Shown piece by piece: positions 13,827-64,000 of a stretch of DNA of 64,000 nucleotides; within the stretch, counting starts at the first letter, position 1; the number at the start of each line of letters is the position of its first letter. A program made the position numbers and the translations under genes. The DNA is from Candidatus Altimarinota bacterium. Lineage in GTDB: Bacteria; Patescibacteriota; Gracilibacteria; UBA4473. The notes under the pieces were generated by a model. The model made no database searches. It was given only the letters and a program-made list of their open reading frames with translations, and had not been told where the DNA came from. Location of the stretch: positions 896,001 to 960,000 of the forward strand of contig OZ246423.1 in NCBI GenBank assembly GCA_965231215.1. Reading direction: 5' to 3'.

Positions 13827-14741
13827 ATGTCCAGTTTTTCTGTTATCATTCCCAGCTATAATGAAGGTGCGTGGCTTGAACGCACTGTTATGGGCGTACT
13901 GGAGAATACCAATTACCCAGAGTTTGAGATCATTATTGTAGCCGATAACTGCACCGATAATTCTACCGATTTTTGTAAACAAAAATCTATTCCCAACGTA
14001 GTGCTCTTGGAAACTTCACACAATTTGGGAGCGATAGAAGCTCGGAATTATGGCGCTTCTATTGCCGAGGGAGAAAACTTAGTCTTTATTGATGCTCATG
14101 AAGTTCCGGAAACCGATAATTGGATTTCGGTGCTATTTGACTTGCTTGAGAAGCCTAATACGGGAGCGGCAACAATACCGATTTCAAGCTTCGAAGACCC
14201 TCAGAGGATTGGGTATGTGTATCGCCTTAAGGATTTGGCGCTAGAGCCTGCTTGGGAGTCGAGAGAATCAAAACATTTACCATTAGTACCGGTTATTCCT
14301 GGGGGGTGTTTTGCCATTAAAAAATCTGTATTTATCGAAACAGGAGGGTTTAATCCTTTGTTAAAAAAGTGGGGGAGAGAGGACCTAGAATATTCGCTTC
14401 GTTTGTGGCGAATGGGATATGATTTGAGGTCGTCAAAGGCAGCTAAGATTGCTCACGCATTTAGCCATAAAAGAGCATTTGAGATTAGTTGGGATCAGGT
14501 GGATCATAATATTTTGCTTATTGCTGATTTATTGTTTTCCTCAGAGGCGTGTAAAAAAGTTTGTACACATTTAAAAAAGATTCGTCCACAGAATTATGAT
14601 AAAATTTATCAACAATTATTAAATAATGAAGCCTACCAAGCTTACAAAGCAAAACTACTGCTAAAGCGTAGTTTTGAGGACTATAAGATCGAGTTTAAAG
14701 ACTATTTACCAAAAAATTATTCTCTTATACCACAAGTATAA
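13827..14741 (+). CDS. Glycosyltransferase family 2
   Basis: SVIIPSYNE, ARNYGA, FIDAH, GGF...WGRED.EYS.R. Confidence 0.88.
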   Translation: MSSFSVIIPSYNEGAWLERTVMGVLENTNYPEFEIIIVADNCTDNSTDFCKQKSIPNVVLLETSHNLGAIEARNYGASIAEGENLVFIDAHEVPETDNWISVLFDLLEKPNTGAATIPISSFEDPQRIGYVYRLKDLALEPAWESRESKHLPLVPVIPGGCFAIKKSVFIETGGFNPLLKKWGREDLEYSLRLWRMGYDLRSSKAAKIAHAFSHKRAFEISWDQVDHNILLIADLLFSSEACKKVCTHLKKIRPQNYDKIYQQLLNNEAYQAYKAKLLLKRSFEDYKIEFKDYLPKNYSLIPQV

Positions 14742-15979
14742 AACATTCCAAGCCCTATATTTTTCCAGTCATTATCACTTCCAACTCTTAATGGAGTAGT
14801 GCTATAGCCAATATAACTAGGGACGATTGATCCAAGCTCTCCATGGTTTCCACTTCCCCAACACCATAAAGCACCATCATTCTTTATCGCACAAGAGTGA
14901 GAGTATCCTGAAGCAACGCTTTCCCAAGTGTTCTCACTTCCTACCTGTGTAGGAACCCTCTTACTACCTGTATAGCGTTTTCCCTGACCAAGCTGTCCAT
15001 AGTGATCTCCCCCCCAACACCACAAAGTATTATCTGTTTTTATCGCACATAAGTGTCTTTTTCCTATACCAATACTTTTCCAAGTATCGGTACCAACCTG
15101 AACGGGAGTACTTCGATCTATAGCATCATTCTGTCCTAGTTGTCCATAACGGTTATCTCCCCAGCACCACAAGGTATTATTATTTTTAGTCGCACAGGCA
15201 AATTTATTTCCAAGGTAAATATTTTTCCAATCGTTATCGCTACCAACTTGCACAGGGCTCGGTTGGTTATCTGATGGATCATTACTACCAATTCCAAGTC
15301 TTGAATCAGAATTACTCCCCCAACACGACAAAGTATTATCAGTTGTTATTCCACAAGTATGATCTAATCCTGCTGAAACATCTTTCCAAGTACCAGGTAA
15401 TCGCTTAGGGTAATGTTCATACTCATGAATTCCTCCTTTTCTGCCTATTCCTAGCTTCCCAAGGTAAGTGTGTCCCCAACACCATAACGTATTATCATCT
15501 TTTATTGCACAAACATGTCCAGCTAAACCAAATTCTATAGTATCTGCCAGACTACTTAAGTATGAAGGACTCATTCCCCAACATTGAAGATTATTTCCAC
15601 TTGAAATAGCACAAAAGGAATTCACCCCAATTCCAACTTTGTTCCAACTACTACTTTCAAACTGCTCAGGCTCATGAGTATTTGATAATCCTGGAAGAGG
15701 TGAGCTTCCCCAGCACCAAAGAGCCTCTGGAACATGGCATGCCGAAAATTCAATATTTATGGGTTTATTATTCAGAAAAGAGTGCCATCCTGTGGTGGTT
15801 TGAGTTGGAACAAATCGTTCTTTCCCATCCAAGCTCTTAATTTTTTTACAAATTCCATGAGCATTAATTATTTTATCGGCTGTTCCAATACGGAATCCAG
15901 TAAGAATGGTATTAATTGCAAAAACCTCGTCAAAAAGAAGCAATAACGAAAGTAAGAAAAATAATTTTTTTGTTCTCAT
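14717..15979 (-). CDS. Secreted RCC1/BLIP-II-like beta-propeller protein
   Basis: Signal peptide; about 7 repeats of H.CAIK.DNTLWCWG.N.YGQLG; start overlaps the stop of the upstream fibre gene. Confidence 0.85.
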   Translation of the reverse strand: MRTKKLFFLLSLLLLFDEVFAINTILTGFRIGTADKIINAHGICKKIKSLDGKERFVPTQTTTGWHSFLNNKPINIEFSACHVPEALWCWGSSPLPGLSNTHEPEQFESSSWNKVGIGVNSFCAISSGNNLQCWGMSPSYLSSLADTIEFGLAGHVCAIKDDNTLWCWGHTYLGKLGIGRKGGIHEYEHYPKRLPGTWKDVSAGLDHTCGITTDNTLSCWGSNSDSRLGIGSNDPSDNQPSPVQVGSDNDWKNIYLGNKFACATKNNNTLWCWGDNRYGQLGQNDAIDRSTPVQVGTDTWKSIGIGKRHLCAIKTDNTLWCWGGDHYGQLGQGKRYTGSKRVPTQVGSENTWESVASGYSHSCAIKNDGALWCWGSGNHGELGSIVPSYIGYSTTPLRVGSDNDWKNIGLGMFYTCGIRE

Positions 15980-17853
15980 AGATTCATAACTTCCTTTAAT
16001 TTATTAATTTGTTCTTGTTGATTTTCAATTAATTTCTGTTGTTGATCCGTTAGTTCTTTCATTTCTTTTAAGGCCTCAACAAGTATGGCATTTATATTTC
16101 CATAGCGAACCGACTTCAGCCCATCCACCTCGCTTGTTTCTACGAGTTCTGGTAGGACTCTTTCAACATCTTGAGCAATGAAACCAATAGAATTTTTATC
16201 AGAATTATTCCATTTAAATTTAACACCTTCTAATTGCTGAATAATTTTTATTGGATTTTTGATTTTCAAAATGTCTTTTTTCAAACGCTTATCAGAGGAG
16301 TAAACAAAATCTGTTGCTAGAACTGTTCCTTCAACATCTAGCTTCTGAGAAGGGGCCGTCGTCCCAATCCCGACATTACCCGTATGCGCAACCGTCATGG
16401 AAGGTGTCCCGCCATAATAGGAATTACCAGCAGCACCATCTACATAAAACCGAATATCCCCTGCATTGGACACCAAACGTATCCAGTTGCTTCCACCTTC
16501 AGAATAAAGCCCTAAATCAGTACCAGAAGCCAACCCCGCTTTGTTGATGATGCCCTCTCGAACCCTCAAACCACCACTACCAATATCCAACGTAGCACTC
16601 GGCGTCGCCGTCCCAAGACCAATATAACCATTACCACCATCAAGCGTAAAGTGCGTATTTTCCCCAACACCACCACCCACATTAATCTTGAATTTATGAT
16701 TATCTGACTGATCCAGTCCTACAGAATACCAAGCATTCCACGGATCATGGAAACGAATTTGCGAGTCAGCATCATTATTCTCAACCTCGATATTCCCGCC
16801 GCGTATCTCTAACTTATTATCCGGATCTGCCGTCCCAATCCCGACATTGCCGCCGACAAGCGCCATGTCAGTTGCAACAGAACGTAAGATAGCCGTATTA
16901 TTACTATCTGTTGTTATATCAAGAATTCTTTGGTCACCCGCTTTATCATTATTAAAAATACTAAAAAATTGATTGTCATCTAGACTTCCTGCTGGCGCAG
17001 CGCCAAGAGCCCTGCCTGCCATTATTATCCCTGAAACATTCAACTTCGCATTAGGAGACTCCGTCCCAAGCCCGACATTGCCATTCGCTGCAATACTCAA
17101 ACCATGATACCAATTGGTACCATCATTATTATAGATAGAGAGCGCATTCGGCGCACCATAAGAAGATGGTCTCTTAACAAAATCTGTAAAGTGTGAGCCA
17201 CCATTGCTACTTTGCAAACGTAACGTATGGCCAGTATTATCCGGCGAAAGAACGTGCAACGGCAAACCAGGCGTCGCCGTCCCAATGCCAACCCTACCGG
17301 TTTCTGTCACTCGCATAAGTTCAGCCCAGTTACCGCCTGGGCCAGCGGCATTTTTTCCGATGACGAGGGCTCGGTTATCATTATCATCATTATTCCAGTC
17401 CATAGAAAGATAAACATTGTCTTCCCCATTTAGCTCTAGAGCTCCATTACTGTCATAAATAGTGCCGCCTCTTACCAGCAGTGTACCATCTATTTGAAGA
17501 TCTCCGTCTTCATCAATGTTGGCTTTATCTGCATCGGCTCCTGTTCCAATCTGAAAGAGTTTTTCATTGGCGGTAGGAGAGGCTTTGTGAATTGAAAAAT
17601 GTGCCGGAAAAGTATCGGTTCCAATACCGACTTTCCCATTAAGATAATAGAGGTCTTGACCGCTGAAATTCCAAACCTGATAGCCTAAAATATCAACAGC
17701 GGTAGAGAGGCTTAGGAGATCAGTTCTTACCTTGTTCCAATCTGAGGCCCGAATAAGTTCTCCACTATTGACAGTGGGAGTGGTTATTGTCACCGCAGCG
17801 TAAGAAGTATTTGAGAAACTGAACAACAGCCATGCAAGCAATAGAGTTCTCAT
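15976..17853 (-). CDS. Secreted tail-fibre-like adhesin A (GNVGIGT repeats, C-terminal peptidase S74 chaperone domain)
   Basis: Signal peptide; repeated G[NKR]VGIGT..P...L junctions; SSDKRLKKDI...IGFIAQDVE.VLPELV...Y..I.A.LVEALKE plus coiled coil. Confidence 0.85.
   Translation of the reverse strand: MRTLLLAWLLFSFSNTSYAAVTITTPTVNSGELIRASDWNKVRTDLLSLSTAVDILGYQVWNFSGQDLYYLNGKVGIGTDTFPAHFSIHKASPTANEKLFQIGTGADADKANIDEDGDLQIDGTLLVRGGTIYDSNGALELNGEDNVYLSMDWNNDDNDNRALVIGKNAAGPGGNWAELMRVTETGRVGIGTATPGLPLHVLSPDNTGHTLRLQSSNGGSHFTDFVKRPSSYGAPNALSIYNNDGTNWYHGLSIAANGNVGLGTESPNAKLNVSGIIMAGRALGAAPAGSLDDNQFFSIFNNDKAGDQRILDITTDSNNTAILRSVATDMALVGGNVGIGTADPDNKLEIRGGNIEVENNDADSQIRFHDPWNAWYSVGLDQSDNHKFKINVGGGVGENTHFTLDGGNGYIGLGTATPSATLDIGSGGLRVREGIINKAGLASGTDLGLYSEGGSNWIRLVSNAGDIRFYVDGAAGNSYYGGTPSMTVAHTGNVGIGTTAPSQKLDVEGTVLATDFVYSSDKRLKKDILKIKNPIKIIQQLEGVKFKWNNSDKNSIGFIAQDVERVLPELVETSEVDGLKSVRYGNINAILVEALKEMKELTDQQQKLIENQQEQINKLKEVMNL
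16364..16616. repeat. 253-bp internal cassette identical to 19152-19404
   Basis: Base-by-base comparison showed no differences; encodes ATPSATLDIGSGG...AHTGNVGIG. Confidence 0.95.
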
Positions 17854-17944
17854 ATTTATTTTTTTTCACACTTTATAATACAGGTATTTGTTTTTAGTTT
17901 AAAGTTAAATTTTCTGACTTGTTTTTTTAAAATTTTGGATGGAT
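17276..17944. repeat. ~670-bp near-identical direct repeat (5' constant region plus promoter) of 20304-20971
   Basis: Only a handful of substitutions seen; covers the first ~192 codons and ~90 bp upstream. Confidence 0.95.
17862..17914 (-). promoter_or_regulatory. Conserved fibre-gene promoter (copy 1)
   Basis: Minus strand TTTAAA-17 nt-TATTAT-aaagtgtg; identical at 20890-20942 and related at 26904-26959. Confidence 0.55.
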
Positions 17945-18019
17945 ATCAGCAAAATTCTCTGTTGATAAACTTTATCTGATCATTGTATCAGAAAACCCCT
18001 AAAAAATAAAGTGAGGATT

Positions 18020-20881
18020 CTATTGATTTTCCAAAGCTTCAACACGAGCTTTGAGGGCATCATTTTCAGCCTTGAGCTCTTGAATTGCTTTGACGAGGAT
18101 AGGCGCCATCTGACCATAGGCCAAAGACTTCGTGCCCATCTCATCATCCGCCGTGCTCACCAGCTCCGGCACCAAAGCCTCAACCTCTTGCGCCAAGAAA
18201 CCAACCTGATGCACTTGCTCCGCCCGCTGCGCCTCATCGATCCAATCAAACGCCACCGGCTTCATCGCCATCACCGTATCCAAACCATAATCCAGATCCA
18301 CCACATTGGTCTTCAACCGAGCATCAGAAAAAGTCGACCAAGTCGACCCCGTATTCGCCCCGCCCCCCCCACCAAGTGAGGACTGAGCCACACAATTACC
18401 TCCAGAAGTATCACAAATTTGATTCGTGCGTACTCCTCCACCGTCAGCTCGAATACCCGCCCCTGAATAAAGCCACTTATTTCCATAAACTCTCAACCAA
18501 GTAGAATCGGTCATATGGAATCCTCCTCCATAATTTTGGAAATAAATTCCATTATTTCCATTCACTCGAAGCCAATCTCCTAGAATCTGAACTCCATTAT
18601 GGATGAAAATACGCCCACCAAATGTAGCATCGTTATTTTCCATATTTATAGACAAGGGCCACTGTCCATTGTATTGACACCAATTATTACCCCCTCCAAC
18701 GCCATCATTACCACAACCTCGTAAAAAATACATTACATTAGCATTCATATGTATCATGGCCGAACGATGATCTACATCTCTAAAGTAAATGGTTGGGTAA
18801 TTACTTCGAATGGTTAACCCATTGGCATATCCATCGCCTCCATTCCCAACCTGAAGTTTGGTAGTTGGGCTTGAAGTTCCAATCCCGACATTGCCCTGCA
18901 TACCAAAATAACTTAGGTTAGGCCTAAAAACGGCATACTCTGTATATTCTCCGGGATTATCTCTCCATCTAAAAATCCTTAACCCTTGATCATAATTATC
19001 AATGGTAATTCGCCCATTTCTATTGCTTTCTGGATCAGCATTCATTAACACCATTTCACCTCCTTCAGTAGCTGTGTTTTGAGAGTCTATTCTCAAATAA
19101 TTGGTTCTCAAATCCCCAGCTACCTGTAGTTTTGAGGTTGGATTAGCGATTCCAATCCCGACATTACCCGTATGCGCAACCGTCATGGAAGGTGTCCCGC
19201 CATAATAGGAATTACCAGCAGCACCATCTACATAAAACCGAATATCCCCTGCATTGGACACCAAACGTATCCAGTTGCTTCCACCTTCAGAATAAAGCCC
19301 TAAATCAGTACCAGAAGCCAACCCCGCTTTGTTGATGATGCCCTCTCGAACCCTCAAACCACCACTACCAATATCCAACGTAGCACTCGGCGTCGCCGTC
19401 CCAATCCCGACATTACCAGAAGGTTTAATAGTTACTTTTTCAGAAAATGAACCAAAACCAATATTAGGGGCTAAGCCTTCAGTATTCCAATGTCCTAATC
19501 TTATATCTGTTGTAGAGCCTGCTGCAATAGCCGGATATTGCCCATTCTTTTTCACAAACCCTAAACGAGAATTAACACCAGAGTCAGCTCCCATATAAAT
19601 ATCCTCTCCAGTGGCTACTACATTTCCTCCAGCTACTAATTTTGTCTTGGTCCCAAAAGGGCTCGGAGATGTAGCAGTACCAGCCAGAACGATACCCCCT
19701 GTTGGGTTAAGCAGAAGATTCCTGGCGTTATTAGTCGCATTAAACTCTTTATGGTAAGCCTGTAACCAAGGCCCTCCATCAGCAACACCTATATCCATAA
19801 CATTTGTACTATTTACAGTCTGAAATCGAGCTATAGCCCCAGGACTAGGGGTAGTAGCATCTGGCAGCGATTGTCCAGACGATGTTACATGTAATTTTTC
19901 CAATGGAGTATTAGTCCCAATCCCGACATTGCCAGAAGCCCGAGTAACGTTGCTACCACTTTCTGTCCAGGTAGAACTCCCGCCACCACTACTCAAACTT
20001 CCAGCGGGAACACAGTTACCTCCATTTTGATCACAGTACTCTGTAGCGCCTATTTTCCCTTCAACATCTAGCTTTAGCCCCGAGGAGGGGCTGATTGTAC
20101 CAATCCCGATATTCCCATTTCCTAGATTCAAGGTCATCATATCACCGCCACCACCAGTAGAAGAAAATCTAGCTGTATCCTGAGCTCCTGCATAAGTTTT
20201 TATTCTTAATGAGTCTGTAGCATTACTAATAATTAAGCCGTCATCACTAGCTCCACCATTAACTTTCATATCTCCGACCACCTGAAGCGCATGAGATGGA
20301 TTTGCCGTCCCAATGCCAACCCTACCGGTTTCTGTCACTCGCATAAGTTCAGCCCAGTTACCGCCTGGGCCAGCGGCATTTTTTCCGATGACAAGGGCTC
20401 GGTTATCATTATCATCATTATTCCAGTCCATAGAAAGATAAACATTGTCTTCCCCATTTAGCTCTAGAGCTCCATTACTGTCATAAATAGTGCCGCCTCT
20501 TACCAGCAGTGTACCATCTATTTGAAGATCTCCGTCTTCATCAATGTTGGCTTTATCTGCATCGGCTCCTGTTCCAATCTGAAAGAGTTTTTCATTGGCG
20601 GTGGGAGAGGCTTTGTGAATTGAAAAATGTGCCGGAAAAGTATCGGTTCCAATACCGACTTTCCCATTAAGATAATAGAGGTCTTGACCGCTGAAATTCC
20701 AAACCTGATAGCCTAAAATATCAACAGCGGTAGAGAGGCTTAGGAGATCAGTTCTTACCTTGTTCCAATCTGAGGCCCGAATAAGTTCTCCACTATTGAC
20801 AGTGGGAGTGGTTATTGTTATCGCAGCGTAGGAAGTATTTGAGAAACTGAACAACAGCCATGCAAGCAATAGAGTTCTCAT
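18020..20881 (-). CDS. Secreted tail-fibre-like adhesin B (GNVGIGT repeats, PilV-like segment, C-terminal peptidase S74 domain)
   Basis: Same N-terminus as A; many GNVGIGT junctions; FSDARLKTNV...VGFLAQEVE.LVPELV...LVKAIQEL. Confidence 0.85.
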   Translation of the reverse strand: MRTLLLAWLLFSFSNTSYAAITITTPTVNSGELIRASDWNKVRTDLLSLSTAVDILGYQVWNFSGQDLYYLNGKVGIGTDTFPAHFSIHKASPTANEKLFQIGTGADADKANIDEDGDLQIDGTLLVRGGTIYDSNGALELNGEDNVYLSMDWNNDDNDNRALVIGKNAAGPGGNWAELMRVTETGRVGIGTANPSHALQVVGDMKVNGGASDDGLIISNATDSLRIKTYAGAQDTARFSSTGGGGDMMTLNLGNGNIGIGTISPSSGLKLDVEGKIGATEYCDQNGGNCVPAGSLSSGGGSSTWTESGSNVTRASGNVGIGTNTPLEKLHVTSSGQSLPDATTPSPGAIARFQTVNSTNVMDIGVADGGPWLQAYHKEFNATNNARNLLLNPTGGIVLAGTATSPSPFGTKTKLVAGGNVVATGEDIYMGADSGVNSRLGFVKKNGQYPAIAAGSTTDIRLGHWNTEGLAPNIGFGSFSEKVTIKPSGNVGIGTATPSATLDIGSGGLRVREGIINKAGLASGTDLGLYSEGGSNWIRLVSNAGDIRFYVDGAAGNSYYGGTPSMTVAHTGNVGIGIANPTSKLQVAGDLRTNYLRIDSQNTATEGGEMVLMNADPESNRNGRITIDNYDQGLRIFRWRDNPGEYTEYAVFRPNLSYFGMQGNVGIGTSSPTTKLQVGNGGDGYANGLTIRSNYPTIYFRDVDHRSAMIHMNANVMYFLRGCGNDGVGGGNNWCQYNGQWPLSINMENNDATFGGRIFIHNGVQILGDWLRVNGNNGIYFQNYGGGFHMTDSTWLRVYGNKWLYSGAGIRADGGGVRTNQICDTSGGNCVAQSSLGGGGGANTGSTWSTFSDARLKTNVVDLDYGLDTVMAMKPVAFDWIDEAQRAEQVHQVGFLAQEVEALVPELVSTADDEMGTKSLAYGQMAPILVKAIQELKAENDALKARVEALENQ
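19152..19404. repeat. 253-bp internal cassette identical to 16364-16616
   Basis: Direct comparison. Confidence 0.95.
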
Positions 20882-20971
20882 ATTTATTTTTTTTCACACT
20901 TTATAATACAGGTATTTGTTTTTAGTTTAAAGTTAAATTTTCTGACTTGTTTTTTGAAATTTTGGATGGAT
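20304..20971. repeat. Second copy of the ~670-bp constant region plus promoter
   Basis: Direct comparison with 17276-17944. Confidence 0.95.
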
Positions 20972-21113
20972 GTCCCCAACAGGATTCTCTCTAATTTTTA
21001 TGGTTTATCCTGGCATAAGATTAAAGGTTCGCCCTGCGGCTCTGAGCTGGTTTATAGTTTTCTCACTACAATAACTATCACCGAGGAATCCTCCGCTGTT
21101 AGTTCCTATCTCA

Positions 21114-24100
21114 TTAGTTTTTACGGCAATAGAGTACGGCGACATTCTTTGGTCGGGTTTCAGCGCCACCAACGGCGTTTGATGCATTCGCAATGACGCC
21201 GTTATTATAGCCTCGTTGATAATGCCCGCCAAAGGACCAACCGCTGCCATTATAGGAATTTTGCGGAATATGCTCGTGTGACTTAAATTCATCTTCTTGC
21301 GTGCTTCCCGGCGCTCTCACCCCGCCAGGGTCAATGGTTCCGGTGCTGTCAATACCCCGCAAGAAGCGTCCGCGTGCAGCGGTATATTCGCTCCATCCAG
21401 CAGGGCAGGACGTCAAGTCAAACGCCTGAATCTCTCCAGAAATTCGGCCGCCACCCGAACTGCCGCCGGAGCTGCCGAAATAGCCACAACGGCCCTCATC
21501 ACAAATATCGGCCAAATCCACACCGGCACCATCCGTGGCACCACAACGGGTGCTTAAACCACTAATACCAGAAATATTTCCAGTTCCATCAAAGGCGATA
21601 TACCGATTAAAATTCCCTACAATTGCATACCAAACCGAGTCATTCTTGTGTTCCGACATAACCAGAATCTGACCCCATGTTCCCGAGCTGTAATTACACA
21701 TCAAGTAATCCGGCCACTTCGAAACACCCGCAGGCGCGACCGGTAACTTCAGTGTCGACGCAAGATTAGACCCCGCGATAGCATCAGAAATAGCCGCCCC
21801 CGAACTCGAACCCGACCCGCCGCCGGGTACAACTTTATATACCTTATAATCCACCGTGCCGCCGCAGCCTGCATTGTTGTAGATGGTCATGGAGATTTTA
21901 CTCGAGCCATCCGTTCCAAAGGTGGCGTACATATAGCCGCAGCCTGCCGTGCTATAGGTCGGTTCAAGTGCGGCGATGTATTCGTAACCGTTTGCTAGCC
22001 CCGTTACGGCAGAGGCGTATGAATTACCTGGGACAGTGGCGGTACCGGACGCTACTTCTTCCAGCCCCAGTGCGCTGCCACCCCCCGAACTCGACCCGCC
22101 GCCACCGAAATAGATGACTTTACCTTCGCTGATGAGCGTATCTATCGATTTGCCGTTACAGTCTGAGCCGGTGGCATGCGTCTGATAAGCCGCAGTCTGC
22201 GCCTTAGTCGTGGGATGGAAGATGAACTGCGCATTGTCCGAATCACTCGGGTCGGAATTCGCGACATAATAGACGCCGTTGGTTGCGTGGTCATGATCGG
22301 CGATAAACATTCGTGTGTAGCCATTTTGCGTACATTTTAGCGCATCCGGCCAGCCGGATTTGAACACACCGGTTGGTGTGCTCGAACTCGACGAACCCGA
22401 GCTGCCGCCGACTTTAAAGCCGGAGAAATGGGATTCCCTTACGGTTCGTGCGGTGCCGCCATTGTGATAGACAATGACTTCAACCACATCATTGGCATTG
22501 AGATAGGCTATTCCAGAACAGCTAAATGCTCCTGAATTGCCTGACACTGTGGTGTTATGTCGCGCATAACAAATACTATCTGCTGCCGCGGATTTGCCAG
22601 CATGATTCTTCTGAATTCTAATGATTTGATCGGAGCCAGAGGCCTCAATTTCAGCAGAGGCGTTAAATTGGTAAAAACCTGTTGACGGCACGGTAAATTT
22701 GCCGGTTGATGTATCGTAATTGTTGCCTCCCTCCTCCTGTATCTCGGTCGCAAAAACAAGGTCGGACCATGTATTGTGTGTGGCAGTTTGTGTCCCATCC
22801 CCAATCGCCTGGAATGAAACAGCCGACCCCCCACCCGAACTCGACGAACCCGACCCGCCGCAGTTTTTCTGGAGCGATGTGACGGCAGAGTCGGTGCTAT
22901 AACTTGCTGTCCCTTCAGTACGATAGCGACGCGTACCCTTAGCGCTGCTTTGAATCGTATATTCAAAGTTAGTGCCAGAACTCGCAAAATCCACGAAGAA
23001 TATCTCAGCAGCTTTTACTTTATAGGCATACATAATATTGCCACTACCCTGCTCTGCACGATAGTCGCAGCTTGTATCAAAACTATTAGTATCACTTAGG
23101 CTGACCTCTTCCCAGCCCCCACCCAAACTCGACGAACCCGATCCGCCGCTTCCCCATTCCTTCCAGGCAATGGTTTTGAACTGTAGGGTCTGCGCATATT
23201 GTTGGTCGTTGGAGGCGACTTCAAACAAGGTCGTGTGATAGCTGAACATGATATTGGTGGCGTCGTAGCCCAGAGCGGAGCCGCGCTTGGTGGCACCGCC
23301 GTTGAATTGGTTGCCGTCGGAGCTGAGATGCTGGGTGATATTGCCGGAGCTGTCCTTTAAATACCCGACCGCAAAGACCGGCTCGGCCCCGAACCCATGC
23401 GCGAAGTTGCGGGTATTCGTCCCGGCTGCCAGCGTCACCCAGCCGGAATCGAAGTCCGGCGTGCCAAGCGCACCGCCGGTGCCACTGCCGCCCGAACCCG
23501 ACCCGCCGCCGGACATTTTGAAGCCGGAGAAATGGGTGTGGTAGGCGCCTGCGCTTCCATACGGGGTTTCAGCGCCGGCAGCCCGAATGTCGATCTGGTC
23601 GCCCGCTGTCAGTTCCAGAATGAAGGAGGCATCGCTTCGCCGATATCTAACACTGCCGCCAACGCCTCCGTAGGATGCGATCAGCATGTTGACGCCATTT
23701 TTATAGACCCAGTAGTCTGAGTTGTCTGTATTGTTCTGCCCCAGAATCTCATAGGAGAAATGATAGGTGCCGTCGGACGGGGCGACATAGCGGTTGTTGG
23801 TGAGGTCGAAATCATCACCGATATTGGTCAGCGCCAGATCCCAGGTCACGACATCACCGGTAGACGCGGACTGATGTGCGGTTTTGACGACGGTGAAGGC
23901 GGATTCCGGCGTCGACGAACTTGATCCACCGCCAGAGCTGCCGCCGCCGAGCATGTAGCCGTAGAAGAGACTATCGGCTGGATGTCCAAGATTCACACGC
24001 CCGCGATTGCTGAAATAGATACTGAGTTCATCATTCACCGCCGCATCAATCAACACACATCCAGAATTTGTTTCTGCGTTCGGATTGTTATATTGGCTGG

Positions 24101-26840
24101 ACTGTCCACCATTAACAACAGCGCCATTCTTATGAATTTCCGTGTGGAACTCAGCATTATTATGATTGTAATATTGCCAACAGACATTGTAGATCCCCTT
24201 CGTCGGCACCGTATAAATCCCCGTCGTAGCATCAAAACCACTATCCGTGTCCAAATCCACCGTGTCATAAACCATGGCCCCCGCACCACTTTGCACCGCC
24301 GTCTGACGCGCTGAAAACGCCACCGGAGAAGCAGAATCTGATCCACCGCTAGACCCCGACCCGCCGCCGGAACCAAGGAGATACGCTTTCATCGTCGCGG
24401 CAACAGACGGCGTAGCATCGTTGCTATGTGCAATAACACTAAGATAATCGGTCGTACCGTTCATCTCCACAACTTGTGTAATACTGTGATAAGCATCACT
24501 ACCATTAAGGTTTACATATCCAGAATCGTTAGCAACAGATGCACCATTTTTGCTAATAGTCGTAGAACACCACTTATTCGCATCGATACTCCGGCAAACA
24601 ACATTGGCTATCACGAGATATTTACCGGCAACATTCGGGGTAAAACGCCCTGTCGCCGTGTCATGCAAATTTCTGGAATCGGAACCCACTGAGTCAAGAA
24701 CAATCTCTGTCCATGCATTCTGCGGTATCGACTTCGCCGCCGAAGTTGCAACATGAACATAAACCTCCTCCCCCGAAGAACCACCGCTAGACCCCGAACC
24801 GCCGCCGGAGATTTTGAAGCCGGAGAAGTGGGTGTTTGCGCCTTCCAGATTGATCGAGGCGCCGTTAGTATTATACCCAGAAACCTGAACCACATCTCCT
24901 GCAGCCAGTTCTACCACGGCAGAGCAGGATGGTGCGTGGTCAAGGTTTGAATTTTTACCTCTAGCACTGCTGAGACAGAGCGTTTCGATATTGCCACCAC
25001 CCAAATCCTTATAGATGCGTATCAACAGACCATTATTATTGGAGCTGCCATTCATCAAACTCGACGTAAATAGATAGGTACCAGTACTTGGGGCGGTAAA
25101 TTTTCCGGTTGAGGCGTTGTAATTTGAACCGCCATTTTGATGTTGTATCGTTGGAAAGATTGTATTTGCCCAGGTCTGTGAGGCAATTGATGTAGTCGAA
25201 CCTGTCGCCCTGAATGAAATTTCTTCACCCGAACCGCCCGAGCTGCCGCCGCAGTTTTTCTCGACTTGATTGACCGTGAAGCTTCCTCCCCAAGAGGCAC
25301 CCGTTCTGAGATTGTAGCTATTTTTGCTGCCTTTGGGGATGCGGAACTCGATCTCCGTACCGCTGGAATTCCATTGGGTAAAGTAGGCGTAATCGGCAGC
25401 GACCAATGTCGCGTAAAATTTTTGTCCGCCTGAGGGGCTATCCAATGTCGTACGATAATCGCAGGCAGTGTCAAAGTCTGCCGTGTCGCTTAGGCTGACC
25501 TCTTCCCAGCCGCCGCCACTACTCCCTCCACTCGCTAGGGATCCCCAAGTTGATCCATCACAGACTTGGACTGCCCCTCCTTGGTATCGGATTGTTCCGG
25601 CTTTCGTGTTGTCACAGGCAGCTGTATCATCTCCAATCTTGACTCCTCCAGCTATATCTAATAGCGCTGCTGGAGTAGCGGTTCCTATCCCTACTTGACC
25701 ATCTTCATCGACTCTCATTAATTCTACCCAATTGTCTCCTGGGCCCGGACTATTCTTTCCTATAATTAAGGCTCTTGTGTCTACATCATTGTTATTCCAG
25801 TCCATTCCGATGTAAATGTCATCTTCTCCACTTAATTCTAGGTTTCCGTAACTATCATAAACATCGCTGCCTCGTACCAATAAATCTCCATCCAAAAAGA
25901 CGTCTCCGTCTTCATCTATGGCGAATCTATTATCGTCTCCACTAATGCCTACCTGAACCAGTACTTGGTTGGCCGCAGGAGTATCCTGGTAGACATAAAA
26001 GTTTGCTCCAGGACTAGTAAGGCCTATCCCGACCTTTCCACTACTATAATGAATGTCTCCTGAGGGGCTGCCCTCTTCCCACTTTCCGCCTCCTAAAACT
26101 TCCCAACTACTTCCATCATAATAAAAATATTCATTACTTGAAGTATTGTAATATGTATCTCCTGCATCTGGGCTCTCTGGCGGAGTTGTATCAGTCACGG
26201 AGTTACTAATTTCTACCCAGCTACTTCCATTATAAAAATAGATTTGATTATCTGTTGTATTATAAAAAACATCTCCTTCACTGCCACTGCCTGGATTACT
26301 CCCCCCACGCTGAATAGCACTTGCGCCGCCTCCGCTTGCAATGCTGGAGGCTACGTCCGAGGGCACTACACAATTATTTCCCAAAGCATCACAGTATTCT
26401 ACGGCTCCCACTTTTCCTGCTATGTCTAGTTTTAGTCCTGGACTTATACTCGAGGTACCAATACCTACATTACCTAAGGGGTAATTAATATCACTAGAGG
26501 ATTTTATCCAATACTGTTCTGGAAGATTGGTCAATTGTGATCCATCTCCTATAAATCTAGTGGCTTTTACGTTTCCGTTTACCTCTAGTTTTTGGGTTGG
26601 TGAAGCTGATTCTAGGCCAATTCCAAATCGATCATCACCTAAAGCGCTGGTGCCTTGATCATTTCGTTTAAGCCCCTTCACTACATTTACTAAAGTATTT
26701 AGCTCTGTAGCGGTAAAAGCATCTCCCGTTTCTTTTGCGGGTATAGACGAGGCATCATATTCTGCGGCTTTAACTGGCTCAAATACAGTCAAAACGGTCA
26801 TAAGTACTATCACGCAAACGCTAAGAGAGATGTGGCGCAT
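21114..26840 (-). CDS. Giant secreted mosaic fibre/adhesin C (1908 aa): fibre stalk, ~12 Gly/Ser-linked modules (several C1q-like), terminal tail-collar-like domain
   Basis: Signal peptide; GNVGIG stalk; modules with TGKFTAP..G.Y.F and HFSGFK (C1q-like); C-terminus GEIQAF...CPAGW...GRFLRG...GSTQEDEFKSH.H...ETRPKNVAVLYCRK typical of phage tail-collar proteins. Confidence 0.8.
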   Translation of the reverse strand: MRHISLSVCVIVLMTVLTVFEPVKAAEYDASSIPAKETGDAFTATELNTLVNVVKGLKRNDQGTSALGDDRFGIGLESASPTQKLEVNGNVKATRFIGDGSQLTNLPEQYWIKSSSDINYPLGNVGIGTSSISPGLKLDIAGKVGAVEYCDALGNNCVVPSDVASSIASGGGASAIQRGGSNPGSGSEGDVFYNTTDNQIYFYNGSSWVEISNSVTDTTPPESPDAGDTYYNTSSNEYFYYDGSSWEVLGGGKWEEGSPSGDIHYSSGKVGIGLTSPGANFYVYQDTPAANQVLVQVGISGDDNRFAIDEDGDVFLDGDLLVRGSDVYDSYGNLELSGEDDIYIGMDWNNNDVDTRALIIGKNSPGPGDNWVELMRVDEDGQVGIGTATPAALLDIAGGVKIGDDTAACDNTKAGTIRYQGGAVQVCDGSTWGSLASGGSSGGGWEEVSLSDTADFDTACDYRTTLDSPSGGQKFYATLVAADYAYFTQWNSSGTEIEFRIPKGSKNSYNLRTGASWGGSFTVNQVEKNCGGSSGGSGEEISFRATGSTTSIASQTWANTIFPTIQHQNGGSNYNASTGKFTAPSTGTYLFTSSLMNGSSNNNGLLIRIYKDLGGGNIETLCLSSARGKNSNLDHAPSCSAVVELAAGDVVQVSGYNTNGASINLEGANTHFSGFKISGGGSGSSGGSSGEEVYVHVATSAAKSIPQNAWTEIVLDSVGSDSRNLHDTATGRFTPNVAGKYLVIANVVCRSIDANKWCSTTISKNGASVANDSGYVNLNGSDAYHSITQVVEMNGTTDYLSVIAHSNDATPSVAATMKAYLLGSGGGSGSSGGSDSASPVAFSARQTAVQSGAGAMVYDTVDLDTDSGFDATTGIYTVPTKGIYNVCWQYYNHNNAEFHTEIHKNGAVVNGGQSSQYNNPNAETNSGCVLIDAAVNDELSIYFSNRGRVNLGHPADSLFYGYMLGGGSSGGGSSSSTPESAFTVVKTAHQSASTGDVVTWDLALTNIGDDFDLTNNRYVAPSDGTYHFSYEILGQNNTDNSDYWVYKNGVNMLIASYGGVGGSVRYRRSDASFILELTAGDQIDIRAAGAETPYGSAGAYHTHFSGFKMSGGGSGSGGSGTGGALGTPDFDSGWVTLAAGTNTRNFAHGFGAEPVFAVGYLKDSSGNITQHLSSDGNQFNGGATKRGSALGYDATNIMFSYHTTLFEVASNDQQYAQTLQFKTIAWKEWGSGGSGSSSLGGGWEEVSLSDTNSFDTSCDYRAEQGSGNIMYAYKVKAAEIFFVDFASSGTNFEYTIQSSAKGTRRYRTEGTASYSTDSAVTSLQKNCGGSGSSSSGGGSAVSFQAIGDGTQTATHNTWSDLVFATEIQEEGGNNYDTSTGKFTVPSTGFYQFNASAEIEASGSDQIIRIQKNHAGKSAAADSICYARHNTTVSGNSGAFSCSGIAYLNANDVVEVIVYHNGGTARTVRESHFSGFKVGGSSGSSSSSTPTGVFKSGWPDALKCTQNGYTRMFIADHDHATNGVYYVANSDPSDSDNAQFIFHPTTKAQTAAYQTHATGSDCNGKSIDTLISEGKVIYFGGGGSSSGGGSALGLEEVASGTATVPGNSYASAVTGLANGYEYIAALEPTYSTAGCGYMYATFGTDGSSKISMTIYNNAGCGGTVDYKVYKVVPGGGSGSSSGAAISDAIAGSNLASTLKLPVAPAGVSKWPDYLMCNYSSGTWGQILVMSEHKNDSVWYAIVGNFNRYIAFDGTGNISGISGLSTRCGATDGAGVDLADICDEGRCGYFGSSGGSSGGGRISGEIQAFDLTSCPAGWSEYTAARGRFLRGIDSTGTIDPGGVRAPGSTQEDEFKSHEHIPQNSYNGSGWSFGGHYQRGYNNGVIANASNAVGGAETRPKNVAVLYCRKN
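26071..26762. repeat. ~690-bp constant region of fibre C, inverted paralogous copy at 63058-63749
   Basis: Colinear and ungapped, high identity by eye (roughly 85-90%). Confidence 0.9.
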
Positions 26841-62866: not shown

Positions 62867-62991
62867 ATAGAAAAGTCATTTAAAATGAAGGCTTTGTTTT
62901 GCAAGGTTCTTTTGTCTATAAGCTATTCAGGGCCTTTTTTTTATGCTAGAATACAGGAGGATTTTCAGAATTTAAGTAAAAATAAAATCAA

Positions 62992-64000
62992 ATGCACTTT
63001 TTCTCTTTCCCCTTAATTTTATGCGGAGTCTTTTTGTTTTCTGTTGTTTCTGCTACAGAATATGATCCAAGCATTATACCATCAAAAGTAACCGGTGATG
63101 CTTTCACCGCCACAGAGCTAAATACTTTAGTAAATGTAGTGAAGGGTCTTAAACGAGATGATCAAAATACCAGCACTTTAAGTGATGATCGATTTGGAAT
63201 TGGTCTAGAATCAGCTTCCCCAACCCAAAAATTAGAGGTAAATGGGGGCATAAAAGCCACTAGATTTATAGGAGATGGATCACAATTGACGAGCCTTCCA
63301 GAAAAATACTGGATCCAAATTGGAGGAGATATTAATTACCCTTTAGGGAATGTAGGCATTGGTACCTCGAGTATAAGTCCAGGGCTAAAACTAGACATAG
63401 CGGGGAAAGTGGGAGCCGTAGAATACTGTGATGCTTTGGGGACTAATTGTGTAATGCCCTCAGATATAGCCTCCAGTATTGGAAGTGGCGGTGGCGCGAG
63501 TTCTATCCAGCGTGGGGGGAGTAATCCAGGGAGTGGCAGTGAAGGAGATATCTTTTACAATACCTCAAATAATCAAATCTATTTTCATGATGGAAGTAGC
63601 TGGGTAGAGATTAGTAACTCCGTGACCGTTACAACTCCGCCAGGGAGCCCAGATGCAGGAGATACGTATTACAATACTTCAAGTAATGAATATTTTTATT
63701 ATGATGGAGACAGTTGGGAAGTTTTAGGAGGCGGAAAGTGGGAAGAGGGAACAACGCTAGGAACCATTTATTATACTGGTGGAAATGTAGGGATTGGCAC
63801 CTCAAACCCTAGTTTTAAACTTACTATAGTTGGTGATGCAACTGCTTCATGGGTAAGTGCAGCAGCCCTATTGGCTGATACTAGTGCTGGTGGTAGAGCT
63901 TATTCAATTGGGAGTCGGAATGGAGTAGGATTTCATATAGGAGATGAAACAGCTGGAGTTTCATTATTGGTAATTGACGCTGCTGGAAACGCCGGAATTG
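62992..64000 (+). CDS. Secreted tail-fibre-like adhesin E, paralogue of fibre C (runs off the window)
   Basis: Manual translation MHFFSFPLILCGVFLFSVVSATEYDPSIIPSKVTGDAFTATELNTLVNVVKGLKR...GGKWEEG then a different module; TGCTAGAAT extended -10 at 62944-62952. Confidence 0.85.
   Translation, partial: MHFFSFPLILCGVFLFSVVSATEYDPSIIPSKVTGDAFTATELNTLVNVVKGLKRDDQNTSTLSDDRFGIGLESASPTQKLEVNGGIKATRFIGDGSQLTSLPEKYWIQIGGDINYPLGNVGIGTSSISPGLKLDIAGKVGAVEYCDALGTNCVMPSDIASSIGSGGGASSIQRGGSNPGSGSEGDIFYNTSNNQIYFHDGSSWVEISNSVTVTTPPGSPDAGDTYYNTSSNEYFYYDGDSWEVLGGGKWEEGTTLGTIYYTGGNVGIGTSNPSFKLTIVGDATASWVSAAALLADTSAGGRAYSIGSRNGVGFHIGDETAGVSLLVIDAAGNAGI
63058..63749. repeat. Inverted paralogous copy of 26071-26762
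   Basis: Colinear, ungapped comparison. Confidence 0.9.

What the first reader, a model, noticed from the sequence alone, without database searches (positions are those of the whole stretch)
16364..19404. An identical 253-bp cassette sits in different module contexts in fibres A and B, with both ends in the junction motif
Seen: 16364-16616 and 19152-19404 are identical. Identity starts and stops inside G.[VI]G[IL]G codons, and the flanking modules are unrelated (A: DPDNKLE... before and the S74 cap after; B: NTPLEKL... before and IANPTSK... after). This is direct evidence of a recent single-module copy or gene-conversion event rather than whole-gene duplication.
Basis: seen in the sequence. 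Interest (0 to 1): 0.8.

Follow-up and report, generated by a model that had tools for sequence, protein, structure and literature searches.

The report
Module swapping between bacterial surface fibres
Two neighbouring genes for phage-tail-fibre-like surface fibres in a tiny-genome (Patescibacteria-group) bacterium carry an identical 253-base building block in different positions, one visible case of a wider trade in fibre modules, within this genome and with a related species, that is cut and pasted at one conserved loop motif.

Summary
Window 16364-16616 and 19152-19404 are identical over 253 nt. Both copies lie in frame in two tandem minus-strand genes: fibre A (15976-17853, 625 aa) and fibre B (18020-20881, 953 aa). 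Both ends of the identity fall inside G-x-V-G-I-G codons.

The genes are chromosomal, not phage. Each encodes a signal peptide, loop-delimited beta-helix modules and a C-terminal Peptidase_S74 chaperone. The closest solved relatives are the Bdellovibrio MAT fibres, and the junction motif is their "capping loop".

The cassette is one of several shared blocks:
- A and B also share a 652-nt 5' block with 5 mismatches.
- The congeneric genome G004 carries the cassette (4 of 253 nt differ) next to the same S74 cap (393 of 393 nt identical), against a 70-82% genomic background.
- G004 also carries B's module X at 98%.
- Eight of ten internal block borders lie within 8 nt of a motif core.

In fibre A the cassette sits between the last two capping loops, just before the S74 cleavage serine. 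It is therefore the tip module of mature A, and it is internal in B.

Best reading: segmental gene conversion and inter-species recombination at the motif. Duplication followed by module replacement is not excluded. Spanning reads were not available.

The parts
15976..17853 (-). Fibre A gene (625 aa, P0001): signal peptide, N-terminal anchor-like domain, modules a3-a5, cassette, S74 cap
   Evidence: ORF and translation. Peptidase_S74 at aa 520-571, E 3e-15. Module map.
18020..20881 (-). Fibre B gene (953 aa, P0002): same N-terminus, module X, b4, b5, cassette, b7, a different tip, own S74 domain
   Evidence: Peptidase_S74 at aa 852-908, E 1.2e-15. Module map.
16364..16616 (-). Cassette copy in A (aa 413-497). 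It lies between the last two capping-loop motifs, 23 aa before the S74 serine S520, so it is the predicted tip module of mature A.
   Evidence: Position compared with Bd3182 loops R656-H669 and F752-H765 and cleavage at S782 (passages of PMC10769870; alignment to 8OJN).
19152..19404 (-). Cassette copy in B (aa 493-577). It is internal, 275 aa upstream of B's S74 serine S852.
17276..17927 (-). 5' block of A: promoter-like site, ribosome-binding region, signal peptide and N-terminal domain, ending in R-V-G-I-G-T-A
   Evidence: 652 nt, 5 mismatches to B. Border 2 nt from the motif core. Promoter-like site 17903-17875.
20304..20955 (-). 5' block of B, the paralogous copy of 17276-17927
   Evidence: Promoter-like site 20931-20903.
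20097..20321 (-). Module X of B (aa 187-262). It is 98% identical to a module of both G004 fibres and has both borders in motif cores.
14610..16635 (-). Tract about 99% identical to G004: cassette, S74 cap of A, the whole RCC1-like gene and the 3' end of a GT2 gene. Its upstream border lies at the cassette's 5' motif.
   Evidence: 19 mismatches in the 2,000 nt from 16600 to 14601, against 94 in the next 500 nt. Flanking genes are 70-82% identical. Cap 393/393 identical.
14717..15979 (-). RCC1-repeat protein gene (420 aa, with signal-peptide-like N-terminus). Its ATG overlaps A's TGA, and it lies inside the tract shared with G004.
15979..16296 (-). S74 intramolecular-chaperone cap of A, with S-D-K-R-L-K at aa 520-525
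   Evidence: The SDxxxK motif is as stated in PMC10769870.
18023..18328 (-). S74 cap of B, with S-D-A-R-L-K at aa 852-857. It is only 32% identical to A's cap.
16364..16377 (-). One of six copies of the 14-nt motif core AATGTCGGGATTGG. The others have high ends at window 16848, 18892, 19165, 19414 and 19930. All six in the genome lie in A (2) and B (4).

Best explanation
**What the genes are.** A and B encode secreted, homotrimeric, phage-tail-fibre-like surface fibres of a small-genome bacterium of the Patescibacteria group. Each fibre is a string of beta-helix modules. Every module is closed by a 'capping loop' (G-x-V-G-I-G-T-x-x-P-x-x-L), and the fibre ends in a self-cleaving S74 chaperone.

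**How the cassette arose.** The 253-nt cassette is exactly one loop-to-loop module. It was copied between the two paralogues by homologous recombination (segmental gene conversion). The crossovers resolved in the short stretch of identical DNA that encodes the loop, so the product stays in frame and foldable.

**The same process elsewhere.**
- It homogenised the 5' anchor block of A and B.
- It moved modules between co-occurring congeneric species: X, and the cassette together with the cap and the RCC1 gene.

**Home context.** The cassette's home is next to A's S74 cap. There it would be the exposed distal tip after autoproteolysis. B's internal copy is the derived one.

**Shown:** the identities, the borders, the module map, the family resemblance, and the presence of RecA and ComEC.

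**Inferred:** the recombination mechanism, the direction (A-type context into B, about 0.55), surface display, and a ligand-binding role for the module.
For: **Exactness and rarity**
- 253/253 identity in the same codon phase.
- Only two copies in the genome.
- Among about 5.8 billion proteins, only A, B and G004's P0004 carry the cassette at 92% identity or more. The next best is 42% (14 hits among 312 candidates).

**Borders**
- 8 of 10 internal coding borders of near-identical blocks, in six gene pairs, lie within 8 nt of a 21-nt motif core. Five lie inside a core. Cores make up 2-7% of each gene (the g958 row is counted by its g961 partner).
- The two exceptions lie at the signal-peptide/mature boundary and in a Gly/Ser linker.

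**DNA-level microhomology**
- The 14-mer core occurs 6 times in 1.33 Mb, all in A and B, and once in G004.
- All seven G-N-V-G-[IL]-G motifs of A and B use GTC for Val and GGG for the next Gly. Background use in these genes is 17% and 21%.

**Concerted evolution**
- The A/B 5' block is 99.2% identical.
- G004's two fibres share about 1,225 nt at 99.5-100% although they lie 400 kb apart.
- Between the genomes the same region is about 76% identical.
- A B-type S74 relic lies behind P0005. It is 41% identical to B's cap and 28% to A's, and a 71-nt stretch of 3' flank is 85% identical.

**Inter-species exchange**
- 19 mismatches in 2,000 nt across cassette, cap and RCC1.
- Cap 393/393; X 98.6%.
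- Flanking genes 70-82%.

**Home context**
- Cassette-cap adjacency is seen in A and in G004.
- It is also seen in a contig of run X2 that joins cap, cassette and X.
- The B context is seen only in this genome.

**Family**
- PDB sequence hits: Bd2133 8OND (E 1e-12), Bd3182 8OJN/8ONB/8ONC (2.4e-5), MyRF and a phage long-tail-fibre tip.
- A's loops align to the Bd3182 capping loops (with passages of PMC10769870).

**Trimer**
- Complex prediction on A aa 400-625 in three copies: score 0.89, best of 3 controls 0.00.
- The mark was reached by 21 of 30 proteins solved as pairs of one chain and by 0 of 23 solved as single chains. These counts hold only roughly for three copies.
- The runs agree in at least 90% of contacts, and pLDDT is at least 82.
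- Like complexes are solved, so the pass may reflect likeness only.

**Machinery and context**
- RecA and a ComEC-type channel are encoded.
- The neighbourhood is housekeeping.
Against: - No read or contig spans the whole cassette in the B context. Logan contigs stop 30 nt inside it from each side, below the tool's 31-nt bridging rule. The three runs come from one study and may include the source sample.
- The divergence of the two shared A/B blocks (5/652 and 0/253) is compatible with one age, so a duplication origin is not excluded.
- Borders at the motif could reflect selection for foldable chimeras rather than a mechanistic preference. Breakpoints also cannot be resolved inside already-identical DNA.
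- 14-17 nt is short for RecA-dependent exchange (recalled knowledge of minimal homology lengths).
- Two of ten borders are not at the motif.
- The direction rests on two genomes plus metagenome contigs.
- Recent exchange with G004 is not fibre-specific. Six other tracts of 95% identity or more include ValRS and an AddA-like helicase.
- Surface display, autoproteolysis and ligand binding are untested.
- The N-terminal domain shows no detectable link to Bdellovibrio MATs.
Confidence: 0.68

Rival explanations
1. Relic of a recent whole-gene duplication. An ancestral gene N-X-cassette-cap (the G004-like order) was duplicated in tandem. The downstream copy then swapped X for a3-a5. The upstream copy gained b4-b5 and swapped the cap for b7-tip-S74B. 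The cassette and the 5' block are what is left of the duplication.
For: - Both shared blocks have compatible divergence: 5/652 and 0/253.
- The block from -74 includes the promoter-like site, as expected for a duplicated unit.
- G004's syntenic locus has a single fibre with the order X-cassette-cap.
- B carries X directly after the N-terminal block.
Against: - It needs at least three later imports from donors that are not in this genome, all within the time in which 652 nt gained 5 changes. No a3-a5, b5 or b7 relative of 60% DNA identity or more was found among the four genes or in the genus.
- A B-type 3' end exists in G004 as well, so the A/B split looks older than the 99-100% blocks.
- G004's two paralogues show the same 5' homogenisation while 400 kb apart.
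- Even under this reading, every later replacement is again a module exchange at the motif.
Confidence: 0.2
2. Assembly artefact. Only one context is real, and the second copy was created by mis-joining contigs of this genome and a co-occurring relative that shares X, the cassette and the cap.
For: - The samples do hold a relative with the order cap-cassette-X: joints 16612>20100 in X2 and 19400>20100 in X3.
- No contig spans the cassette in the B context.
Against: - In X1, contigs run from each of the four flanks into the cassette: 15625-16393, 16587-17305, 17994-19181 and 19375-20138. All four junction word sets therefore exist.
- With two direct copies on one chromosome, the only other pairing of flanks gives a deletion plus a circle, not a linear path (my reasoning).
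- Both reading frames run through both junctions with intact motifs.
- The genome is one 1.326-Mb contig at 99.3% completeness.
- Weak hint only (per-contig depths, my arithmetic): the cassette contig has depth 727, against about 228 for the unique parts and 540 for the cap contig. This fits two copies here plus one in the relative.
Confidence: 0.04
3. A dedicated, programmed variation system (silent-cassette gene conversion as in pilE/pilS or vlsE, a shufflon-type recombinase acting on the 14-17-nt core, or a diversity-generating retroelement) produces the pattern.
For: The cassette is flanked by short conserved direct repeats of the motif core. This recalls the short direct repeats around the vlsE cassette (recalled, not checked here). 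The core is kept identical against codon usage.
Against: - There are no silent or promoterless copies. The cassette has two copies, both inside full-length genes. The degenerate 20-nt motif pattern hits only the fibre-family genes (16 hits).
- All cores are in direct orientation, so inversion switching is impossible.
- The copies are identical, with no adenine-biased differences.
- No recombinase or reverse transcriptase appeared among the ten flanking genes scanned. The rest of the genome was not searched for one.
Confidence: 0.04
4. Old shared module kept identical by purifying selection, with no recent event.
For: The module may be functionally important, since it is the tip of A.
Against: - All synonymous sites are identical over 84 codons, while G004's copy differs at 4 sites.
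- The neighbouring modules have no DNA similarity.
- Selection on protein cannot freeze third-codon positions.
Confidence: 0.01

Closest known systems
Bdellovibrio bacteriovorus MAT (mosaic adhesive trimer) fibres, S74 subgroup such as Bd3182 (Caulton et al. 2024, PMC10769870; passages read)
   Same: - Signal peptide.
- Trimeric intertwined beta-helix stalk punctuated by capping loops. The junction motif aligns to Bd3182 R656-H669 and F752-H765.
- C-terminal S74 chaperone with SDxxxK.
- Alternative tips in paralogues. Here these are C1q domains in the 1,908-aa neighbour and a Gly-rich tip in G004 P0005.
- Several paralogues share one N-terminal domain.
- The authors infer that tips are 'swapped out in evolution'.
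- The best PDB sequence hits are MAT structures.
   Different: - The host is a 1.3-Mb bacterium of the Patescibacteria group, not a deltaproteobacterial predator.
- The N-terminal domain is lineage-restricted. Of 14 hits, none is named Bdellovibrio and none has a Pfam or NCBIfam family.
- Only two S74 members are present here, against 13.
- What is seen here is nucleotide-identical exchange of internal loop-to-loop modules, within a genome and between species. The passages I read describe only tip exchange inferred from protein comparison.
Mosaic phage tail fibres that recombine at conserved motifs (T-even distal fibre locus; Tetart et al. 1998, recalled; its title phrase occurs in papers listed, the paper itself was not read)
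   Same: - Short conserved motifs inside fibre genes act as crossover points.
- These crossovers swap adhesin segments in frame between otherwise diverged genes.
- The fibres are trimeric and some carry S74-type chaperones. PHROG tail-fibre families match A and B.
   Different: - The genes here are chromosomal genes of a cell, flanked by housekeeping genes, and carry signal peptides.
- The motif is the capping loop rather than His boxes or Gly islands.
- Exchange runs between paralogues of one genome and between co-occurring bacterial species.
Segmental gene-conversion antigenic variation (Neisseria pilE/pilS, Borrelia vlsE; recalled)
   Same: Cassette-sized conversion tracts bounded by short conserved repeats inside a surface-protein gene.
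   Different: No silent donor archive. Both partners are complete genes with a promoter-like site. There is no evidence of high-frequency switching.

Membership tests
MAT (mosaic adhesive trimer) superfamily, Caulton et al. 2024 | N-terminal signal peptide | tested here: met
   By inspection: charged start, hydrophobic core, S-Y-A | A-V site. No signal-peptide predictor was run.
MAT (mosaic adhesive trimer) superfamily, Caulton et al. 2024 | Conserved beta-rich domain of about 130 aa directly after the signal peptide, shared by all members and homologous to the Bdellovibrio one | tested here: inconclusive
   A domain of about 170 aa is shared by A, B, G004's fibres, a 370-aa ORF and the C1q giant. 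A search with aa 20-192 gave 14 hits, none named Bdellovibrio. Pfam and NCBIfam gave nothing. Bdellovibrio N-terminal sequences were not on hand for a direct comparison.
MAT (mosaic adhesive trimer) superfamily, Caulton et al. 2024 | Trimeric beta-helix stalk with capping-loop motif | tested here: met
   - Sequence hits to 8OND (1e-12), 8OJN/8ONB/8ONC, 8OL4, 8OML and 8ON4, aligned on the loops.
- Homotrimer model: score 0.89 against best control 0.00. The mark was reached by 21 of 30 pairs and 0 of 23 single chains. Contacts agree in at least 90%, and pLDDT is at least 82. The pass may be from likeness to solved S74 fibres.
MAT (mosaic adhesive trimer) superfamily, Caulton et al. 2024 | C-terminal S74 chaperone/protease with SDxxxK, or an alternative adhesive tip | tested here: met
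   PF13884 at 56.7 and 58 bits, against a cut-off of 22. S-D-K-R-L-K at A 520-525 and S-D-A-R-L-K at B 852-857.
MAT (mosaic adhesive trimer) superfamily, Caulton et al. 2024 | Display on the cell surface and binding of prey or host surface molecules | not testable with these tools
   Needs microscopy and binding assays.
Phage virion tail fibre or tailspike with S74 chaperone | Peptidase_S74 domain and tail-fibre-like stalk | tested here: met
   PHROG tail-fibre families matched down to E 1e-30 for A and 5e-35 for B.
Phage virion tail fibre or tailspike with S74 chaperone | Encoded among virion or prophage genes | tested here: not met
   The ten flanking genes are housekeeping: ribulose-phosphate epimerase, riboflavin synthase, M50 protease, ribosomal protein L25, aminotransferase, GT2, malic enzyme, S41 protease, VanW and an HlyD-like protein. 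Both proteins carry signal peptides.
Silent-cassette antigenic variation (pilE/pilS, vlsE type) | Archive of promoterless donor cassettes | tested here: not met
   The genome holds only two cassette copies, both in full-length genes. Motif-pattern hits occur only in the 8 fibre-family genes.
Diversity-generating retroelement target | Template and variable repeat pair differing at adenines | tested here: not met
   The copies are identical. A reverse transcriptase was not searched for.

The most novel reading that the evidence does not exclude
The capping-loop codons act as a maintained DNA-level splice site. A 14-17-nt core is kept identical in six loops of A and B, against codon usage. This would let naturally competent, co-resident Patescibacteria species trade ligand-binding fibre modules in frame. 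The result would be a population-level cassette system for changing host or prey recognition in ultra-small episymbionts, built from phage-fibre parts. The 253-nt cassette would be the ligand-binding tip of fibre A, now also displayed laterally on fibre B.
Probability: 0.25. Interest if true: 0.8.

Novelty: new variant of a known kind. Interest (0 to 1): 0.6.

Why it matters
How Patescibacteria recognise their hosts is largely open. The abstracts listed by my searches discuss type IV pili. I found no paper linking Gracilibacteria or Patescibacteria with S74 or tail-fibre-like proteins:
- none of the 15 papers listed holds either lineage term;
- 0 of the 8 papers meeting the search held 'endosialidase' or 'tail fiber';
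- none of the 12 papers listed holds 'mosaic adhesive trimer'.

This locus offers concrete candidates for host recognition. These are MAT-like fibres whose modules, including the predicted distal tip, are exchanged at nucleotide identity between paralogues and between species found in the same samples.

It also gives unusually clean material on how trimeric fibres evolve. The unit of exchange is exactly one capping-loop-to-capping-loop structural module. That is also a practical rule for engineering chimeric fibres.

The general principle, mosaic fibres recombining at conserved motifs, is already known from phages and was inferred for Bdellovibrio.

Tried and rejected

- The look-up of sequencing runs was unreachable four times and answered on the fifth identical request.
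- NCBIfam gave 0 families for A, B, P0005 and the C1q giant.

**Reads**
- Read laying served only Logan contigs of 3 runs from one study, and X1 may be the source sample.
- No record spans the stretch, and none bridges a cassette border in the B context with 31 letters on both sides.
- The spanning-read test therefore remains undone. Stretches without cover in X2 and X3 say nothing.

**Readings rejected**
- Prophage or virion origin: rejected on the housekeeping flanks.
- Genetic code 25, considered because G004 is titled Candidatus Altimarinota: rejected. Table 11 gives 45 ORFs of 150 aa or more that cover most of the window, and 10 of them end in TGA. A TGA-terminated aminotransferase ORF matches its Pfam model to position 220 of 223.
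- DGR, shufflon or silent-cassette systems: see the rival explanations.

**Weak or negative leads**
- G004's 1,146-aa fibre P0006 shares B-like protein stretches (58% over 71 aa) but no DNA-level similarity. It gave no information on what preceded the cassette in B.
- Protein atlas on the N-terminal domain: the best hit is a phage T4 gp9/10 N-terminal cluster at 0.93, with 150 shared features. That is below the 170 typical of true family members, so it is a lead only.
- One search was a mistaken reference that errored and was dropped.
Full report
**1. The observation**

Window 16364-16616 and 19152-19404 are identical at all 253 positions. The repeat finder found the pair independently. Outside the block only 24 of 60 nt and 25 of 60 nt match.

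Both copies lie on the minus strand, inside two tandem ORFs: fibre A (15976-17853, 625 aa, P0001) and fibre B (18020-20881, 953 aa, P0002). They are in the same codon phase.

Identity begins in the L/I codon of G-Y-I-G-L-G-T (A) or G-N-V-G-I-G-T (B). Between the two genes, blastn finds only two blocks of at least 80% identity.

The genome is G000, one contig of 1,326,059 nt at 99.3% completeness. It holds exactly two full copies of the cassette.

**2. What the genes are**

Each protein starts with a signal-peptide-like N-terminus (by inspection). Each ends in a Peptidase_S74 intramolecular-chaperone domain, at 56.7 and 58 bits against a cut-off of 22. The S-D-x-x-x-K motif sits at A 520-525 and B 852-857. 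These are the only two S74 matches in the genome.

The ten flanking genes scanned are housekeeping, so this is not a prophage. PHROG tail-fibre families do match both proteins.

The only solved structures found by sequence with B are Bdellovibrio Bd2133 (8OND). With A aa 400-625 the hits were 8OND (1e-12), a phage long-tail-fibre tip (6F45), Bd3182 (8OJN/8ONB/8ONC), MyRF (7DC3) and three more Bdellovibrio fibres.

Passages of Caulton et al. 2024 (PMC10769870) define the MAT family as follows:
- a signal peptide;
- a conserved N-terminal domain;
- an intertwined trimeric beta-helix;
- 'capping loops' with a consensus motif;
- S74 or other tips.

In one search, A's two loop motifs align to the two Bd3182 capping loops that the paper gives as R656-H669 and F752-H765.

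A three-copy model of A aa 400-625 scored 0.89 against a best control of 0.00. The mark was reached by 21 of 30 proteins solved as pairs of one chain and by 0 of 23 solved as single chains, counts that hold only roughly for three copies. The runs agree in at least 90% of contacts and pLDDT is at least 82. S74 fibre trimers are already solved, so this shows likeness rather than proof.

**3. The organism**

The congeneric genome G004 is titled 'MAG: Candidatus Altimarinota bacterium'. That phylum sits in the Patescibacteria group. Standard stop codons fit the window.

**4. Position of the cassette in the fibre**

In Bd3182 the tip beta-helix with its surface cleft lies between the two capping loops, and S74 cleavage is at S782. 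In A the loops start at about aa 410 and 493, and the serine is S520.

The cassette (aa 413-497) is thus the module that would become the distal tip of mature A. In B the same module is internal, 275 aa before S852. That it binds a ligand is inference.

**5. The cassette is one block among several**

- A and B share 652 nt, from -74 to +578, with 5 mismatches. The block ends in R-V-G-I-G-T-A and includes a promoter-like site.
- Cutting A, B and the two G004 fibres at the motif gives this module map:
  - A = N1 N2 | a3 | a4 | a5 | CAS | CAP
  - B = N1 N2 | X | b4 | b5 | CAS | b7 | tip+S74B
  - G004-a (P0004) = n1 n2 | g3 | X | CAS | CAP
  - G004-b (P0005) = n1' n2 | g3 | X | Gly-rich tip
- DNA identities between the genomes: CAP 393/393, X 98.6%, CAS 249/253, N2 77%.
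- From window 16600 down to 14601 there are 19 mismatches in 2,000 nt. This tract holds the cassette, the cap, the whole RCC1-like gene and the 3' end of the GT2 gene. The next 500 nt have 94 mismatches. Flanking genes are 70-82% identical.
- In G004's syntenic locus there is one fibre, followed by the RCC1 gene. Fibre B and the 1,908-aa C1q protein are absent there.
- Other members of the eight-gene motif family in G000 show the same patchwork. One example is 695 nt at 99.86% between g958 and g961/g966, at different positions. Its 5' border lies in V-G-I-G-T and its 3' border in a Gly/Ser linker.

**6. Borders**

I examined ten internal coding borders of near-identical blocks in six gene pairs. 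Eight lie within 8 nt of a 21-nt motif core, and five lie inside a core. Cores occupy 2-7% of each gene.

If each border has a chance of 0.1 or less, eight of ten has a probability of order 1e-7 (my arithmetic). The borders are not all independent.

The breakpoints can only be resolved to the stretch that was already identical. Selection for foldable chimeras would give the same picture.

**7. DNA-level conservation of the motif**

- The 14-mer AATGTCGGGATTGG occurs six times in the genome, all in A (2) and B (4). It occurs once in G004, in the shared tract.
- All seven G-N-V-G-[IL]-G motifs of A and B use GTC and GGG. Background use in these genes is 17% and 21%.
- The modules between these loops are otherwise unalignable at DNA level.
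- So the loop DNA is either repeatedly homogenised by exchange or kept for it.
- RecA and a ComEC-type channel are encoded.

**8. Conversion or duplication?**

The divergence of the two A/B blocks (5/652 and 0/253) does not separate the two readings.

Three observations favour conversion:
- G004-b carries, behind its stop codon, an S74 relic closer to B's cap (41%) than to A's (28%). It also has 71 nt of B-like 3' flank at 85%. A-type and B-type genes therefore appear to exist in both genomes.
- Within each genome the 5' parts are 99-100% identical, while between genomes they are about 76% identical.
- In G004 the two genes lie 400 kb apart.

This is the pattern of concerted evolution. The cassette-cap linkage is seen in A, in G004 and in metagenome contigs. 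The B context is seen only here, so B's copy is probably the derived one.

**9. Further copies**

| Search | Scope | Result |
|---|---|---|
| | Own genome | 2 full copies |
| | 41 genomes of the class, including G000 | 23 of 41 match B somewhere, but the cassette part matches at 88% only in G000 and G004 |
| | 5 genomes of the genus | DNA-level copies only in G000 and G004 |
| | About 5.8 billion proteins | Only A, B and P0004 at 92% or more; next best 42% |

The module type as such is very common. 121,805 representative clusters match A aa 400-625 at E of 0.001 or less, including giants of 7,000 aa or more with about 50 matched stretches.

**10. Reads**

Three runs from one study hold the stretch, and X1 may be the source sample. 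Only k-mer contigs were available.

In X1, contigs run from all four flanks 30 nt into the cassette, and a separate contig covers 16364-16604. None counts as bridging under the tool's 31-letter rule.

X2 has a contig that joins cap-cassette directly to X (16612>20100) and carries the G004-type base at 16534. X3 has the same joint (19400>20100). A G004-like relative is therefore present in the same samples.

The per-contig depths fit two cassette copies in this genome plus one in the relative: about 228 for the unique parts, 419 for the 5' block, 727 for the cassette, 540 for the cap and 794 for X. This is my arithmetic on figures the tool warns are coarse.

**11. Exchange with G004 is not confined to fibres**

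Genome-wide megablast gave 32 alignments of 90% identity or more, 16 of them at least 150 nt long. Outside the fibre locus, six tracts reach 95-99%. They include ValRS, an AddA-like helicase-nuclease and a RibD_C/TetR/hydrolase trio. rRNA-sized segments are only about 90-94% identical.

**12. Literature**

The searches listed no paper that links Gracilibacteria or Patescibacteria with S74 or tail-fibre-like proteins, or with MAT fibres. I saw only listings and abstract starts.

Recombination at conserved motifs in T-even fibre genes is recalled. Its title phrase appears in papers listed.

**13. Verdict**

The locus is a new variant of a known kind: mosaic trimeric fibres that evolve by motif-guided module exchange. 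It is notable for three things: the lineage, the exact loop-to-loop unit of exchange, and the nucleotide-identical sharing between species.

Noticed in passing
window 21114-26840 (-): A 1,908-aa protein directly upstream of fibre B carries four C1q domains (E 8.4e-45), a BclA_C-like stretch, three capping-loop motifs and an A/B-like N-terminal domain (51% to B aa 54-216). Its first 645 nt are 95% identical to two genes just beyond the window (G000 961729-965454 and 966456-970193). It is absent from G004's syntenic locus.
   Followed up: partly
window 62986-64000, continuing to G000:C1:961598; also G000:C1:961729-970193: Three more motif-family genes of 870, 1,241 and 1,245 aa. A 695-nt patch is 99.86% identical between the first gene and the other two, at different positions. 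It starts in a V-G-I-G-T motif and ends in a Gly/Ser linker. The two large genes are 93.7% identical overall.
   Followed up: partly
G004:C1:704781-705131 (L031): Behind the stop codon of G004's second fibre (P0005, Gly-rich tip, no S74) lies an out-of-frame relic of an S74 chaperone domain without its catalytic start. It is closer to B's cap than to A's, and is followed by 71 nt that are 85% identical to B's 3' end. This looks like a fossil of a tip replacement.
   Followed up: partly
G000:C1:305777-308052, 548503-550694, 634751-636511, 689221-689679, 741269-743380, 747951-751022: Six tracts outside the fibre locus are 95.7-99.3% identical to G004, against a background of about 70-82%. They include valyl-tRNA synthetase, an AddA-like UvrD/PD-(D/E)XK helicase-nuclease, GAF plus oxidoreductase genes, and a RibD_C/TetR/hydrolase trio. 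Recent inter-species recombination seems to be general in this pair of genomes.
   Followed up: partly
G000:C1:271059-278025: A 7-kb segment aligns to G004 at 93% without gaps. It contains a tandem array with a period of 609 nt, seen as repeated 126-aa frames on the minus strand. It is probably a giant repetitive gene and was not examined.
   Followed up: no
window 14717-15979 (-): The RCC1-repeat protein has a signal-peptide-like start, and its ATG overlaps fibre A's stop. It lies entirely inside the tract that is about 99% identical to G004. It thus travels with the fibre cap, which hints at a functional link.
   Followed up: no
P0001 aa 20-192 (window 17278-17796, -): The N-terminal anchor-like domain has only 13 relatives in the large protein search, all unnamed. 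By language-model features it resembles phage T4 gp9/gp10 N-terminal domain clusters (0.93, 150 shared features). This is a weak lead.
   Followed up: partly
window 15500-21500 in runs X1-X3: In X1, contigs for module X, the cassette and the cap have per-contig depths above those of the genome-unique parts. In X1 the cassette and cap contigs show none of G004's four cassette differences. A co-occurring relative may therefore carry a cassette and cap identical to this genome's.
   Followed up: partly
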